A stretch of DNA of 62,626 nucleotides, the filler included, from Hausera hauseri (taxonomy: Eukaryota): NCBI GenBank assembly GCA_046269625.1. It is 12 parts of 12 records of this genome, joined end to end, with 100 filler letters (N's around TTAATTAATTAA, not from the genome) between each part and the next. Parts side by side here need not be neighbours in the genome. Positions count along the whole stretch, not along the records: positions 14,756 to 21,288 come from JBJURY010090321.1; positions 21,389 to 25,447 come from JBJURY010787534.1; positions 25,548 to 30,639 come from JBJURY010338047.1; positions 30,740 to 36,071 come from JBJURY010277617.1; positions 36,172 to 42,044 come from JBJURY010176639.1; positions 42,145 to 46,238 come from JBJURY010766206.1; positions 46,339 to 50,330 come from JBJURY010834526.1; 5 more parts are not named here. One strand, written 5' to 3'. This document shows, in pieces, positions 17,364-49,871 of this stretch (its first letter is position 1; each line of letters starts with the position of its first letter). A model generated the notes under the pieces. It was not told the origin of the DNA, did no database searches, and saw only the letters and a program-made list of their open reading frames with translations. Made by a program: the position numbers and the translations under genes.

Positions 17364-17460
17364 GAAGATCGGGCCCGACTATGGATCCGACACGGCGATA
17401 GCGGACGTCCGATTGTGCCCGACCAAATGGACCAGATGGCACCAGCCGTGGTGGGTACCA
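17364..17460 (-). repeat. GC-rich ~95-nt junction motif, copy A
   Basis: Reverse complement aligns without gaps to 18847-18927 and 49775-49871. Confidence 0.9.
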
Positions 17461-18846
17461 TAGAGGTATTAGATAGTTTATTCTGTTCCCTGTTGTTTTC
17501 CTGTTGATTTTCTTTAATAATATCAATGGACTTCTTGTCTCTGAGCTCATCATATTTCTTGGTTATTGATGAGTTAAAAAGATTCTTTTGTTTGGATGGA
17601 TTCTCCTGGCACTGTCTAGTGTTGGTTTTTCCTGCGAGTTTTTCTGTTGTATATTTGCTATTTGATTCTTCCTGTCGGTTAGGACTTTTCTTTAGTAGTA
17701 GTTTTCTTGGTTTGGTATGAGCGGTTTTTGTGTGTCGCCGCTTTGCTGGGCGGTTGAGTTTTCCACTCCTTGTTCTGCTTCTGTATTTGTCTCCTTTGTG
17801 ATTTATCTAGGTCCACGGAATATGTTGGAGCATGTGTACATTTTTGTTTCTTTTCAATAGTTTTTTTCTTGAGTTTTGGATTCCAGAATGTGCTGGGCTG
17901 CATTGTCGGATTTCTCGATTTGCGCTTCTGTTTCGCCTGCTGATTTACTGTATAACACCTGCTTTACCGGTATCTTTCTAAGAGAATTTGTAGGTGGTAA
18001 TCCTTAGTTCTTGTAGACGCCGTCGCTAGCAATTCCAGTAGTATTAATATTTTAGTTCTTGAGGTGAAGGAAAGTACTTCTCTGTTGTGTTGTTCATCGC
18101 TATATTGCTTCAGGAACTGGTTGAGAAAGTCTTTTGATTTTGCTGTGATTGTAGTATCGTGAAATTTTACAGATACATTTACTTGAGTGCTGTGTCCTTT
18201 CATAGTGCCTTGATTGTTGGAGTGTAGTAATTCAACTGTGGGTTTCTATTTTTTCCAAAGTTGTTTATCGGCCAGTTGAAGAAAGATGTGTTTCGTTAGG
18301 TTTATGGATTTCCGCGATCACGTTCGTAGTTTTAGATTATTTATGCGTACTATCCTTGGTGGTGTCAAGTTGAGGCTTTGAGGGAATTGTATAATCTGTT
18401 TTGTTGTCGCTTTCTGTTTTGACCTTTTCTTGGTATCGCTTGTGTAATGGGTAGGCCTTGCTTAATTCTATTCCTTTGGTATCTGTGTCGTTTTCTACTT
18501 CTTTTAGTTTTTCTAGGAAGATGAGGATTTTTGTCCCCGAGGTGAATTTGAGTCGTAAGTACGTTGGGACCGTTGATTTGTATTTGTTTAGGATTGAGTT
18601 AAGAAAATCATATGCTGTGTTGATGATTTTCTGACTTTCGAACCATACCTTTTTTCGATGTGTCTGCTGTATCCATTAGTAAAGAAGTGACATAATACTT
18701 TTATTGTTGGTATATACGGCCAGACTGGTTGACGAATGTTCGAGTCTAAGTTCCTCCTTGCCACATGAATTTTTTGAAGGTTGGTATGGCCACGGGTGTT
18801 TTATCTATTATTAATTTTTCTACCTCATCTTTTGCCTCTGCATGTG
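17461..18846 (-). pseudogene. Degenerate ORF with an internally duplicated ~55-aa domain, bracketed by inverted motif copies A and B
   Basis: VWF..YDFLNSILNKY..LKFTSGTKILIFLEKL (~18500-18650) versus VKF..KDFLNQFLKQY..LSFTSRTKILILLELL (~18030-18170). Confidence 0.55.
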
Positions 18847-18927
18847 TGGTGCCCTTTGGCCCATTTGGCTGGGCGCGGTTGGGCGTCCGCTGTCGCCGCA
18901 CCGGATCCATAGTCGGGCCCGGTTCTC
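18847..18927 (+). repeat. GC-rich junction motif, copy B (5'-shortened)
   Basis: TGGTGCCCTTTGGCCCATTTGG...GGATCCATAGTCGGGCCCGGTTCTC. Confidence 0.9.
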
Positions 18928-19659
18928 TACCTCGAAAGTTTTATCCATCGGATTGGAAGAAAGACTCGTTTCACTATCCTGTCCGTACATATTGTATTTT
19001 AGATACTATTGAAACTTGTTTCAGATGATTGTAAAATCTAAAATCATTCAGAACAAAGAGGTGAATTTTACGTTTCATAAGTTGAACTGTTAGTGAATTT
19101 TATGTGCTTACAAAAGATTTAGTATTATTTAATCGCCTATCGTTTTACAAAATTTAACGTTGCATTTTGGATTGTTTCTATAGATGAAGTGTCGGTTTCA
19201 AAGTGATGTCCATAAATAAAAAATTTTTTTTCTACTGTGTACCTGCGATAGTTTGAAGTACTTAATCAGAAGTCAGTCATATAGTGTAAAAAAATTTTTG
19301 TACCAGTGTTTATTCTACTACAATTCCTTGTAAATAATTTTTTTTCGCCATGTACGATTTATTTTCTTGTATAGTACGACCATCTGTCCACATCTGCTCG
19401 TTTTGTCCCGCTTTGTTGTGGAGAATTGTGGATCTGCAACATAATAATCTCCCCGGCCCCAGTGTTCAGTTTCAATATTTTAATTAATATATTATACAAA
19501 CATCGGGATACTTCCATCATATTGCCAACGTCCAAAATACACACATATGGAGAAGCGCCCATAGAATAAAACAATTGATATGAATGATAAACAACAATTT
19601 GTCATGTTACAACCATATTAAAATGCATTTTTAAAAATTGTTTCTTATATGCATTTATA

Positions 19660-21253
19660 GATGAACTTTTGTTTTTACCAATCATCGGAACTTTTATCAA
19701 CGTTGAAGTCTGATTTAGAACCATTGGCTCAAACGGCGAAATTAGAATACGAAGAATCACTGGAAAATAACACTTCAGACATGGTTGGTGTTGTATGAGT
19801 TATTTATCGTTGTCGACTGTCTCATATTTCACTACTACCAACAGTCGTTAGCAGGATTCGTTTGTGTCTTAGTGATGAAGATTTGCCAATTTACAACTAT
19901 GAAACTCTGAACAACTTTGGGACCAAAGCGTTCTTAAAACAGGAATATAAGCAAGGTAATGAATCTGCTCTTAACATAGAAGACGACAACAGAAGCAATT
20001 TGAATATTTCGATTCTGAAATGTATTCAACAGGTCGGTATGCAGAAGTTTATGAATGCTAGAGATCATAAAAACATCTGGTTTCAACTCTTAAATTTTCA
20101 GGTGTCTGCTATTGAAAGGAACTACTGTGAAAGGATCTATAATGATTTATCTCGATCGTTTGCGTTAATAGGCATTGAATCGGTTCTCTTTGCAAGTGAC
20201 CTTTTCCAACAAAAATGTTTGTTTGCGATTTTCAGTGTCTTACGAAGTGTAGAAATCTCATGGAAAATTTCCAGCAAAGATTCAAATTGGGTGAGATCAA
20301 CTGCATTTAGCAAGAATTTATTTTAACACTTCGTTATGATTTGTATCTATTAATGATAAGATCCATTAAAGAACTGAACCACCATATTTTGAATCCTGAA
20401 TCTGTTGCTGCACTACAAAAGAAAATTGATTGGAATCGGTTACAAACAAATAAAATTGCCGGCAGGAAAAAGACTTTTCGTTCGCCCTTGTTTGTACGTG
20501 GAATGCTGACGAGAGAAACTAGGCCTTGCCGATAGGACATCGCTACGTCAACAGGCCGAACAAATTTACTGCAACGTTCAATGCGGAATTATCGACCAAG
20601 TCATTGGATTTATGCGAATGCGGGAACATGTGATGCCGAAAAATTATCGAGATTATCCAACGAATTTAGTGCAAATGGAGGACGATAGAATTTCGATTCT
20701 GGTGACAAATGGTCACGTGAAACATAATCTGGGAAACAGCCAATATCCAGCGCTACTGGAACACTACCACACGTACGCTGCATCATTCAGTGTAACTGTA
20801 TTGCATGATTTGTTCATGGAGGAATTTGGTTATGGTGTCATCAGAAAAAATTAAATTACGGAATTATTGTTAAACGAACCAAGGGTGATCGCGAAAAATC
20901 GACGAGTTGTGGGCACAGTTGGTGTCTCGGGGAGAGTTTGTTTGGTTACAGTTGGAAAATTCATGAACGACAGTAATAATTCTTTGATTGATCCCTTAGA
21001 AAGAAAAGACTACGAACCATATTTATCCATATCTCAAAAGTCCCCCTTACAGATGGATGATAAAACTATTGGGAAGAATGAGGTTACATTTGGGGTCAAA
21101 CCGGCACTCCCTATACTTGCGAGTAATGAAATAGCATCGTTCGAATTTATGAGACAGGTTGAATTTAATCCAACAACCAACATACAACATTTATTCCTGT
21201 TATTTTTCACCATTTCAGTGGGTATGATTCACACTTCCTTATTAGAGAATTAG
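19660..21253 (+). pseudogene. Disrupted host-type gene, possibly PSME4/PA200 (Blm10)-like
   Basis: Consecutive same-strand ORFs broken by stops and frameshifts; NKIAGRKKTFRSPLFVRGMLTRETR resembles my recollection of a PA200 segment; not verified. Confidence 0.3.
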
Positions 21254-21388
21254 GTGAAGCTGCTGGAAAAATTGATGTTATCCCTCATNNNNNNNNNNNN
21301 NNNNNNNNNNNNNNNNNNNNNNNNNNNNNNNNTTAATTAATTAANNNNNNNNNNNNNNNNNNNNNNNNNNNNNNNNNNNNNNNNNNNN

Positions 21389-48727: not shown

Positions 48728-48819
48728 TTCTAAATTTAAACAAACTAACTTTTACAATACATTACAATTATAAATAAAATAAATTAAAATACATAAACAT
48801 GAAACAACCCAAGTAGTCA

Positions 48820-49152
48820 GTGAAATGGTCTTACTCCGTTATAAACATTTTCCTCCATACTTCTACTACTACTACTAATCAAATAGAACAGTACATTAAA
48901 AGTGAGATTCAAAGATTGACCAATGATATAATGACGGGTCATGTGTTTGATGTACAGTTTTTATGTGAGCTCACAGAAACCCGAATAATGAGCAGGCGAG
49001 AATATATTGAATTACTGGTCAGATCTTTCTTCATAAAACGTATCGCGGATGAAATGAGACGAAAACGGCTGCGGATTAATTGCCTACTTATTGGACTTGT
49101 ATTTTCTGTTTCTCTTTGTATTGTAATGAAAAAGTTGATTGACCGTATTTAA
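48820..49152 (+). CDS. Polinton accessory protein A, copy 2 (C-terminal hydrophobic helix)
   Basis: GHVFDVQFLCELTETRIMSRREYIEL; tail INCLLIGLVFSVSLCIVMKK. Confidence 0.7.
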   Translation: MKWSYSVINIFLHTSTTTTNQIEQYIKSEIQRLTNDIMTGHVFDVQFLCELTETRIMSRREYIELLVRSFFIKRIADEMRRKRLRINCLLIGLVFSVSLCIVMKKLIDRI

Positions 49153-49277
49153 TCATACAATTGTACATATTTTGTTGCATTTGTTTTCGTAAATCAATAT
49201 AATTTATTTCGCGTGTCTTTGTTTTTGTTACATTTCAGTATAAATACTTGTGCTTTGTTACGGTATGGCATTACGAC

Positions 49278-49712
49278 ATGTCTCATTTAACATAACCCAT
49301 TCGTTTGTATCACTTCTTCCACGGTCTCCGAAGTCACCTTTACAATCTTGATCGACCTTTACATGATGCACGATACTGTTCGCCTAAAGAGATACTCCGG
49401 CGTGCTGAGGGGAATTGGAGGGCACGAAAACCTTATCTACGACATATGAAGCAGGTTGTTGATGACATTGATACGATATTCGGTCAGATTTTTCGCACCG
49501 ACCGCAAATTGGCGTTGGATGACAATCCACGTCAAATACGGTTTGTGGAAGATTTTATCCAGATTGGTGATTCCAACATCATTACAACGTGGCAGTCAGC
49601 AGATCGGATTTGTTACAAGCAACATTGCAATGTAATTAATTCCGATGGACTCGTTCATTCTCCTGCGAAATTGGTTAACCCATGTGGTTTGTGTGCTCCT
49701 AGCATTCATTAA
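49278..49712 (+). CDS. Polinton accessory protein B, copy 2
   Basis: YLRHMKQVV.D.D.IFGQIF, WQSADRIC; homologue at 55546-55990. Confidence 0.65.
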
Positions 49713-49774
49713 AAACCATTTACTTTTTGTTGTTGTACAAAACAAAGGGAAATAAATGTTCAGTTCGGACTGTA

Positions 49775-49871
49775 TGGTGCCCACGGCGGCTGTCGCCCTC
49801 TGGCCCATTAAATTGGGCACGGCCTGGCGTCCGTTGCCGCCGCGTCGGACCTATAGTTGGGCTCGATTCTC
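49775..49871 (+). repeat. GC-rich junction motif, copy C, at the edge of Polinton copy 2
   Basis: Gap-free alignment to copies A and B. Confidence 0.9.

What the first reader, a model, noticed from the sequence alone, without database searches (positions are those of the whole stretch)
17364..49871. A ~95-nt GC-rich motif recurs at junctions between unrelated mobile elements and flanking DNA
Seen: three gap-free-alignable copies at 17364-17460 (-), 18847-18927 (+) and 49775-49871 (+). The consensus is roughly TGGTGCCCACGGCGGCTGGTGCCCTCTGGCCCATTTGGTTGGGCACGGTCGGGCGTCCGCTGTCGCCGCGTCGGATCCATAGTCGGGCCCGATTCTC. It has a tandem TGGTGCCC start, a GTGCCC...GGGCAC stem and a terminal palindrome TCGGGCCCGA. 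The flanks are unrelated between copies and I found no TSD. The TGG end faces decayed element-type sequence (the ORF segment at 17461-18846, Polinton at 49.7 kb). For B and C the other end faces host-like sequence. The opposite strand ends in a tRNA-like ..GGCACCA. Inference: a terminus or recombination site of an undescribed element that captures heterologous cargo, a Polinton TIR tip reused by non-autonomous elements, or a structured RNA/SINE.
Basis: partly seen in the sequence, partly recalled or inferred. Interest (0 to 1): 0.78.

Follow-up and report, generated by a model that had tools for sequence, protein, structure and literature searches.

The report
Hairpin-bearing end of a mobile repeat
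The repeated 97-base motif is the outer end of an abundant small mobile element that has jumped into other transposons; it is mostly ordinary, but it seems to keep an RNA hairpin that matches no catalogued RNA family, and its class is unsettled.

Summary
At copy A the motif is the tip of a 382-nt insert (17081-17462). The insert lies within one NeSL-like retrotransposon, between 5-bp direct repeats, and one public contig shows the empty site. The TATGG end faces the target; the palindrome end faces the insert's interior. C abuts an interrupted Polinton-like copy; B's limits are unresolved. Contig depth suggests hundreds of motif copies, while the bodies next to them are rare. Substitutions are 26 of 30 transitions and mostly keep a 22-pair hairpin on one strand (three controls at about 1%, one control not significant). 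A box-A-like word is present, box B is poor, and Rfam and ARAGORN find nothing. Best reading (0.45): a solo-LTR-like unit inserted by an integrase (TA..CA tips, 5-bp duplication), with a conserved small-RNA-like core, as in Cassandra/Helenus TRIMs. No PBS, PPT or second LTR was seen. Rivals: SINE-like head (0.27), IS3EU/GingerRoot terminal repeat (0.18). Cargo capture and a Polinton tip are not supported.

The parts
17366..17462 (-). Copy A: left end (positions 1-97) of the 382-nt insert; tip TATGG at 17462
17081..17462 (-). Whole 382-nt insert, 5'-TA..CA-3', tips 7 of 10 inverted-identical; AT-rich middle with a TATA-like word at position 170
17463..17467 (+). 5-bp direct repeat GAGGT, copy on the motif side (target-site duplication)
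17076..17080 (+). 5-bp direct repeat GAGGT, copy on the far side
17367..17424 (-). Long imperfect hairpin in A (motif positions 39-96, 22 pairs)
17211..17365 (-). Low-depth middle of the insert (bin 17211-17360 depth 124; 10 contigs at 17337)
17081..17210 (-). High-depth right end of the insert (bin depth 1842), ends CCCACA; no similarity to the motif beyond the 10-nt tip
18847..18925 (+). Copy B: motif positions 19-97, lacks the first 18 nt; element limits unresolved
18857..18868 (+). Box-A-like word (positions 29-40) in B; also in A; its GG is lost in C
   Evidence: box A as described in PMC10886601
18867..18924 (+). Hairpin in B
49773..49869 (+). Copy C: positions 1-97, tip TATGG at the point where Polinton-like homology breaks
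49811..49868 (+). Hairpin in C
14760..18846 (-). Target of A and neighbour of B: decayed NeSL-like non-LTR retrotransposon (Ulp1-like protease followed by RT); runs into the gap at 14755
47007..49772 (.). Neighbour of C: part of a decayed Polinton-like element, 71% identical to 53257-56003; weak type B DNA polymerase hit at 46473-46901

Best explanation
The motif is the conserved left end of a large group of non-coding, non-autonomous mobile repeats that have inserted into other transposons. Shown at A: a 382-nt unit, tip TATGG outward, 5-bp duplication, empty site in a public contig. Inferred mechanism: the unit is a solo LTR, or an LTR-like remnant, of a TRIM-like retroelement. A helper LTR retrotransposon reverse-transcribed its RNA, an integrase joined the TA..CA ends with a 5-bp stagger, and LTR-LTR recombination left one copy. 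The first ~100 nt are a small-RNA-like core: a box-A-like word, a 58-nt G.U-rich hairpin and a short T run behind it. This core is held constant across families whose remaining sequence differs, because it acts in the RNA, as an internal Pol III-type start and/or a signal recognised by the helper. My odds are about 0.85 that the motif is the outer end of an inserted repeat, about 0.65 that the hairpin is real, and 0.45 for the whole LTR-type account.
For: Insert: joint 17075->17463, skip 387, five letters fit either side, depth 276 against 423 in the bin to its left and 465 just to its right. GAGGT flanks the unit on both sides. Tips: 7 of 10 inverted identity, which 265 of 119,716 window positions reach. 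TA..CA LTR ends are known (TARE1; bioRxiv 10.1101/137141, passages), and most LTR elements give 5-bp duplications (PMC6839031, passages). RNA phase: 26 of 30 substitutions are transitions, against 49-55% in three other repeat pairs of the window. In the hairpin 2 of 66 cells are broken and 8 of 22 consensus pairs are G.U. Random-site resubstitution reaches the consensus energy in 14 of 2000 trials, column shuffles in 16 of 2000, and the fixed-structure test in 69 of 5000. The opposite strand breaks 8 cells in 23 pairs. Shared core, variable rest: depth arithmetic gives about 530-620 contig-equivalents for the motif, about 180 for the right end and about 11 for the middle (rough, not copy numbers). 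Helenus shows this pattern: many families per genome, poorly conserved LTRs around a tRNA-like core, solo LTRs with duplications (PMC10886601).
Against: No two-LTR copy, PBS or PPT was seen beside any copy (by eye). B and C have no recognisable A-type right end within 2.36 kb and 0.46 kb. None of 9 CCRYA sites after B, nor the 1 after C, gives a clean duplication at the tip. None of the 11 joints links the motif to the right end across another middle (weak, contigs are short). The empty site rests on one contig of one run, laid at 80% likeness, with 57 letters on its short side and marked 'between: not known'. Covariation is not significant in the letter-shuffle control (108 of 500). The count of pair-keeping substitutions is only borderline (123 and 80 of 2000). 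There are three sequences only, and each copy's own best fold differs. Box B is not GGTTC in the majority, and C has lost box A's GG. Animal Helenus makes 4-bp duplications and its LTRs are at most 323 nt (PMC10886601).
Confidence: 0.45

Rival explanations
1. SINE-like retroposon head. The motif is the 5' part of a Pol III transcript (tRNA-related, refolded into a rod) shared by several small families or chimeras. A is head + rare body + abundant LINE-derived tail, inserted by target-primed reverse transcription; B may be a short copy beginning at the transcription start.
For: A D-arm/box-A-like pattern occurs in A and B and in 12 and 9 of 2000 shuffles (pattern partly chosen after seeing the sequence). 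TTTT lies 13-14 nt behind the core in A and B, TTT in C. The hairpin is strand-specific. Head, body and tail depths differ, with no head-to-tail joints. B and C lack A's right end. There is an 8-nt direct repeat around B at 18819-18826 and 18926-18933. The second Polinton copy has CTGTATG near the C junction, a possible microhomology.
Against: No poly(A) or simple-repeat tail at A. The 7-of-10 inverted tips (0.2% background) would be chance. No tRNA hit by ARAGORN or Rfam. Box B is degenerate, and changes in C and B destroy box residues while keeping pairs. The right end matches no LINE-like sequence in the window. B's direct repeat overlaps weak A/B homology that runs to 18933.
Confidence: 0.27
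2. Terminal inverted repeat of an IS3EU/GingerRoot-type DNA transposon. B and C are lone or left TIRs; A is a derivative with one TIR and a cryptic other end.
For: IS3EU ends TAYGG..CCRTA (PMC12730594, passages). GingerRoot TIRs are 100-150 bp, TA..TA or sometimes TG..CA, are often unpaired, and the elements carry unrelated fragments (PMC6839031, passages). A and C start TATGG, and the motif is about 97-105 nt with repeated GTCGG words.
Against: The one delimited element has no second TIR: local scores against the right end are reached by 224-387 of 500 shuffles. The duplication is 5 bp exact, and 6 bp only with a mismatch and loss of the CA tip. No transposase was found in the frames after B or C. 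A double-stranded binding site does not predict one-strand G.U pairing.
Confidence: 0.18
3. The motif belongs to the biology of the NeSL-like retrotransposon: B is its 5' end (for example a ribozyme), or a multicopy small-RNA gene that it targets.
For: High depth ends just right of B (2387, then 147, then about 35). NeSL-clade elements target small RNA genes, including tRNA genes for planarian LIN families (PMC4640811, passages). B lacks the first 18 nt.
Against: A lies inside the element in the opposite orientation as a duplicated-site insert, and C has no NeSL-like neighbour. An HDV-like descriptor with a strict loop finds 0 hits on 6 strands, and no hammerhead core words lie in the motif. 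Motif depth is about five times or more that of the element.
Confidence: 0.06
4. One reading: paired ends or recombination sites of an element that captures cargo, or a Polinton TIR tip.
For: A and B are inverted around 1.4 kb; C abuts Polinton-like DNA.
Against: The NeSL-like sequence continues across the A insert. No duplication is visible outside the A-B pair. The five bases before the tip differ between A and C, so there is no fixed crossover core. The second Polinton-like copy has no motif at the same point.
Confidence: 0.04

Closest known systems
Helenus / Ajax / Cassandra ('TRIMp3': TRIMs with a small-RNA-derived Pol III promoter in the LTR; PMC10886601)
   Same: Non-coding unit with integrase-type tips and a short duplication; a conserved small-RNA-like core in otherwise unlike sequence; many families per genome; solo units; box A TRGCY..YGG present in B and nearly in A; T run behind the core.
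   Different: No two-LTR/PBS/PPT copy seen; box B not GGTTC; no tRNA or 5S hit; the core folds as a rod. The core sits at the 5' tip of a 382-nt unit, whereas in most fungal Helenus LTRs read it lies near the 3' end. The duplication is 5 bp against 4 bp in animal Helenus (5 bp in Ajax and fungal Helenus). Four of five motif words are absent from the paper's supplement, and the fifth occurs twice in one unrelated context.
IS3EU / GingerRoot DNA transposons (PMC10045372, PMC12730594, PMC6839031)
   Same: TAYGG tip, conserved end of about 100 nt, frequent unpaired ends, unrelated interiors.
   Different: No second TIR on the delimited element, 5-bp rather than 6-bp duplication, no transposase found.
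tRNA-derived SINEs (head-body-tail; general description in PMC10886601, rod-like refolding recalled)
   Same: Structured 5' head shared between families, box-A-like word, length within 100-700 nt.
   Different: No tail repeat, poor box B, inverted TA..CA tips, no partner LINE end identified.
Ginger1 / Ginger2-TDD (PMC2836005)
   Same: Integrase-type ends; TDD-4 and TDD-5 give 5-bp duplications.
   Different: Their tips are TGTNR and they have 40-297 bp TIRs at both ends; metazoan members give 4-bp duplications.
CryptonS (PMC3212892)
   Same: TATGG termini and 5-6 bp terminal direct repeats.
   Different: Described from oomycetes and a diatom; here TATGG is at one end only, and the 5 bases before it differ between A and C; no tyrosine recombinase hit among the frames scanned.

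Membership tests
Solo LTR / TRIM (general) | TG or TA..CA tips with short inverted match and 4-6 bp duplication | tested here: met
   A only: TA..CA, 7 of 10 inverted, 5-bp GAGGT. Not shown for B or C.
Solo LTR / TRIM (general) | Copies arranged LTR-PBS-internal-PPT-LTR | tested here: inconclusive
   None in the window; no genome is held, so other copies could not be examined.
Helenus (TRIMp3) | tRNA-like sequence with box A TRGCY..YGG | tested here: inconclusive
   Exact in B, one change in A, GG lost in C; no tRNA call by ARAGORN or Rfam.
Helenus (TRIMp3) | Box B GGTTC conserved | tested here: not met
   The majority reads GGCCCGATTC at 88-97; GGTTC occurs only in B and in another register.
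Helenus (TRIMp3) | 4-bp duplication in animals; LTR up to 323 nt | tested here: not met
   5 bp and 382 nt against PMC10886601.
IS3EU/GingerRoot | TAYGG (TA or TG) tip | tested here: met
   A and C begin TATGG; B's tip is missing or altered.
IS3EU/GingerRoot | Long TIR at both ends | tested here: not met
   No match of the motif to A's other end beyond 10 nt.
IS3EU/GingerRoot | 6-bp duplication | tested here: not met
   5 bp exact; the sixth base differs. One site only.
IS3EU/GingerRoot | IS3-like DDE transposase in an autonomous partner | not testable with these tools
   No genome held; frames after B and C gave no such hit.
tRNA-derived SINE | tRNA-related head with boxes A and B | tested here: inconclusive
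   Box-A/D-arm-like pattern in 2 of 3 copies; box B degenerate; no Rfam tRNA hit at E<=10 in 106-117 nt for A and B or in 451 nt for C.
tRNA-derived SINE | 3' tail shared with a LINE; poly(A) or simple-repeat end | tested here: inconclusive
   No tail repeat at A; no match of the right end in the window; LINE 3' ends of this genome not available.
tRNA-derived SINE | Pol III transcription | not testable with these tools
   Needs RNA data or an assay.
HDV-like ribozyme of non-LTR 5' ends | Nested double pseudoknot with conserved L3 and catalytic C strand | tested here: not met
   Own descriptor (consensus recalled): 0 strict hits on 6 strands, 2 relaxed hits in B only, which need sequence outside the motif; no Rfam hit.
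Polinton TIR | Present at the ends of Polinton copies | tested here: not met
   The homologous copy 53257-56064 continues without the motif; A and B are not beside Polinton ends.
Known Rfam RNA | Covariance-model match | tested here: not met
   0 hits at gathering score in the window; best E 1.7 on B, chance level.

The most novel reading that the evidence does not exclude
An undescribed lineage of integrase-mobilised non-autonomous retroelements in an animal genome. Its many otherwise unrelated families all begin with one conserved rod-shaped RNA that is neither tRNA, 5S nor a known ribozyme. That would be a further kind of small-RNA-cored TRIM beside Cassandra, Helenus, Ajax and retrozymes, and its hairpin would be a candidate for the unknown signal by which such elements recruit a helper with unrelated LTRs.
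Probability: 0.15. Interest if true: 0.68.

Novelty: new variant of a known kind. Interest (0 to 1): 0.38.

Why it matters
At the least it turns an apparent 'junction motif' into an ordinary thing: the end of a high-copy repeat nested in older transposons. If the hairpin and the LTR-type ends hold up on a full census, it gives a compact, testable cis signal. PMC10886601 (section 4.2) states that it is not known how TRIMs stay dependent on their helper, and that LTR homology is not needed. A core conserved by structure across hundreds of copies with different bodies would make that question directly testable.

Tried and rejected
No whole genome is held, so no census. Exact scans with a 38-letter degenerate motif found 0 matches in JGI metagenomes, IMG/VR and GTDB genomes. 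P0002 found no related locus in JGI metagenomes (15 pattern hits, 0 confirmed). Run search: 1 run listed, no RNA holder listed; this says nothing on expression. Rfam: 0 at gathering, only chance-level hits at E<=10. ARAGORN: 0. HDV-like and hammerhead word searches were negative for the motif. A CTGATGA word at 17252(+) in the insert's middle lacks the partner GAAA word on that strand. A possible fourth copy near 57690-57730 (19-nt match, E 0.075; local score 34 against a shuffle maximum of 40) was rejected. Frames after B (19799-20323) and C (49917-50330) gave no homologue (34, 54); the atlas hits for C were low-recognition helical-repeat clusters and were not used. Rejected on geometry, from recall and untested: a Fanzor/OMEGA guide RNA (the hairpin's 3' side faces the interior, not the flank), a spliced-leader gene (no shared exon upstream), a PBS (no LTR upstream of any copy), a Helitron 3' end (no CTRR after the palindrome), and a resemblance of B to the start of SRP RNA (not kept in A or C). 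A right end for B at 19392 (CCACA followed by TCTGC) was considered, but the matching 5-mer lies 3-5 nt before B's start and depth there is low. Paper searches found no description of this motif. Repbase and Dfam could not be searched, so absence from print is not established. Four look-ups in earlier scan findings were empty.

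
Full report
Setting. The window is eukaryotic: a helicase exon at 60655-61032 has SWR1/SRCAP-named relatives. It is probably animal (inference from its gypsy, BEL/Pao, Polinton-like and NeSL-like remnants). 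It is a string of short contigs joined by N gaps, so order across gaps is uncertain. No whole genome is held.

Observation. Three copies align without gaps: A/B 62 of 79, A/C 71 of 97, B/C 59 of 79. Shuffled cores reach 36.8 of 79 on average, 41 at most in 100 trials. No further copy was found by nhmmer or by a covariance model with filters off (next hit E 0.3). A and C share a start two bases outside the stated coordinates, TATGG; B lacks the first 18 positions. What follows the motif is unrelated between copies. The named tandem repeat, stem and palindrome are each intact in one copy at most, or only in the majority.

Context of A. The frame at 14886-15521(-) is 75% identical to P0001. Its cluster mate P0002 (1069 aa) carries a Ulp1-like C48 protease (E 4.7e-7) followed by reverse transcriptase (E 1.9e-31). 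tblastn maps P0002 residues 1-283 on 15596-14758. Ulp1 before RT is described for NeSL and one Utopia family (PMC4640811, passages), so I call the element NeSL-like; no tree was built. I laid the contigs of the single listed run X1 (share of words 0.33) on 15861-20360 at 80% likeness (1070 records laid). Depth is 221-2387 in 20 of the 21 bins up to 19010, 124 in bin 17211-17360, 147 in 19011-19160 and 15-48 beyond. One contig of depth 276 joins 17075 to 17463, skipping 387 nt, with five letters that fit either side. Those letters, GAGGT, stand at 17076-17080 and 17463-17467. So 17081-17462 reads as a 382-nt insert with a 5-bp duplication inside one retrotransposon, and A is its end, tip outward. 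Caveats: one contig, 57 letters on the short side, marked 'between: not known', and the tool warns about joints at this likeness. Because 387 is a multiple of three, the shared frame of the two flanking ORFs adds nothing.

The insert. On the TATGG strand it runs 5'-TA..CA-3'. Read inward, the two tips agree in 7 of the first 10 bases, which 265 of 119,716 window positions reach; beyond that the ends are unrelated (224-387 of 500 shuffles score as well). Two positions give 11.6 depth units per contig (335.3/29 and 116.4/10). On that scale the motif stands for about 530-620 contig-equivalents (A plus B), the 130-nt right end about 180, the middle about 11 and the NeSL-like body 36-111. The tool states that depth is no copy number; I use only the contrast. 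None of the 11 joints links the two ends across a different middle.

B and C. C begins where homology to the second Polinton-like copy breaks; that copy goes on without the motif for about 20 nt until a gap. It carries CTGTATG there, so C's first bases may partly be target microhomology. C's other end was not found in the 459 nt before the gap. B abuts the NeSL-like frame. Either the element is cut there, or B is a short insert in its 5' part: TCTACCTC stands at 18819-18826 and 18926-18933, and an ATG lies at 18947(-). But no joint across B is listed, and weak A/B similarity runs into the right-hand repeat. B stays unresolved. Frames after B and C have no detected homologue.

Structure. 26 of 30 differences from the three-way majority are transitions. 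Three other repeat pairs in the window give 49-55%, and X1's change table 412 of 707 (binomial p 0.0008; 0.018 against a conservative 68%). CpG decay does not explain it: 5 CpG-type changes, and window CpG o/e is 1.05. RNAalifold on the 79 shared columns gives a 5' mini-hairpin and a 22-pair rod at positions 39-96 on the TATGG strand (-31.6 kcal/mol, covariation term -2.64), against -22.9 and +1.34 on the other strand. In the rod 2 of 66 cells are broken and 8 of 22 consensus pairs are G.U. Controls for it, with re-optimised structure: 14 of 2000 random-site resubstitutions and 16 of 2000 column shuffles reach the energy; SCI 19 and 47 of 2000; fixed structure 69 of 5000. Against it: pair-keeping substitutions 123 and 80 of 2000, letter shuffles 108 of 500, single-copy z-scores of -0.3 to -1.7 on this strand with differing folds, while A's opposite strand scored -2.5. 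The support is modest and rests on three sequences. With DNA parameters the rod does not recur in all copies. Positions 29-46 resemble a tRNA box A/D-arm in A and B (12 and 9 of 2000 shuffles; pattern partly post hoc). Positions 88-97 are a poor box B, and a T run follows 13-14 nt later in A and B. C's GG-to-AA change at 39-40 and B's A-to-G at 94 damage the boxes but keep pairs, which suggests that the fold is what is conserved (inference). No Rfam, ARAGORN or HDV-descriptor match.

Mechanism. Shown: an inserted unit with a 5-bp duplication and the motif as its tip (A). Likely: a strand-specific fold. Inferred: short inverted TA..CA tips with a 5-bp duplication point to integrase chemistry, and a one-strand G.U fold points to an RNA phase. 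The one common class with both is the LTR retroelement, here a solo LTR-like remnant of a non-autonomous TRIM-like family whose core is kept while the rest drifts (0.45). A SINE-like head (0.27) explains the depth pattern and the missing right ends at B and C better, but not the tips. An IS3EU/GingerRoot TIR (0.18) explains TATGG, the length and the unpaired ends, but fails on the second TIR and the duplication length at A.

Comparison with what is known. PMC10886601 (main text parts 1-4 and 6 of 6, supplement parts 1 and 10 of 11, and a word search) describes Helenus and Ajax, TRIMs with tRNA- or 5S-derived cores. This element may work like them but fails membership of Helenus on box B, duplication length in animals and LTR length, and no PBS or PPT was seen. 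IS3EU and GingerRoot features come from passages of PMC10045372, PMC12730594, PMC11934779 and PMC6839031; Ginger from PMC2836005; CryptonS from PMC3212892; TA..CA LTR ends from bioRxiv 10.1101/137141 (its supplement was not seen). The unread parts of the Helenus supplement hold the animal LTR sequences and could bear on the position of the core. Searches found no description of this motif, but Repbase and Dfam were out of reach.

Verdict. A real repeat, reinterpreted: the end of an abundant small mobile element nested in older transposons, not a cargo-capturing junction or a Polinton tip. It is a new variant of a known kind at best, with an unclassified conserved hairpin as the one point of interest. 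Interest 0.38; novel case 0.15 at 0.68.

Noticed in passing
window 17081-17210: The right end of the insert is itself high-depth (bin 1842) while the middle is 124; it has no other copy in the window and no Rfam match. It could be R-U5, a LINE 3' end or a separate repeat.
   Followed up: partly
window 14760-18846 and 4241-9379 (both -): Two decayed RT elements of the NeSL-like kind; the first has a Ulp1-like protease and is 74% identical to P0002, the second about 31% identical over the RT. No small-RNA target was identified.
   Followed up: partly
window 18819-18826, 18926-18933, 18947: 8-nt direct repeat around B and an ATG on the minus strand just right of it; B may be a ~100-nt insert near the start of the NeSL-like ORF. 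No supporting joint.
   Followed up: partly
window 25550-36070: About 5-kb arms in inverted orientation, 82% identical, across the gap at 30640-30739; weak integrase hit at 32630-33004. Possibly two Polinton-like copies scaffolded back to back.
   Followed up: no
window 2544-4114, 46340-49772, 53257-56064: Three decayed Polinton-like copies, 71-79% identical in pairs; a short polymerase-like peptide also at about 21200 (by eye).
   Followed up: partly
window 12875-14650 (-) and about 13150-13240: A 592-codon stop-free frame with no Pfam hit upstream of the gypsy-like gag-pol (9428-13101), containing a very GC-rich patch; no LTR or PBS recognised.
   Followed up: no
window 50706-53298 (+): BEL/Pao pol remnant (Peptidase_A17 E 4.9e-41, rve) on the same strand as C but across a gap; no PBS links it to C.
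   Followed up: partly
window 49917-50330 (+) and 19799-20326 (+): Stop-free frames of 138 and 175 codons after C and B with no detected homologue.
   Followed up: yes
window 49773-49893: C from its tip to the next CCCACA is 121 nt, similar in layout to the shortest Helenus LTRs seen (about 112 nt), but its flanks are not duplicated.
   Followed up: partly
window 21330-25450 and 36100-42050: Long 4-nt-unit satellite (TTCG/TTCT-like) and trinucleotide arrays that dominate the ORF and repeat lists.
   Followed up: no
window 60655-61032 (-): Helicase_C exon with SWR1/SRCAP/p400-named relatives, the only clear host gene piece seen.
   Followed up: partly
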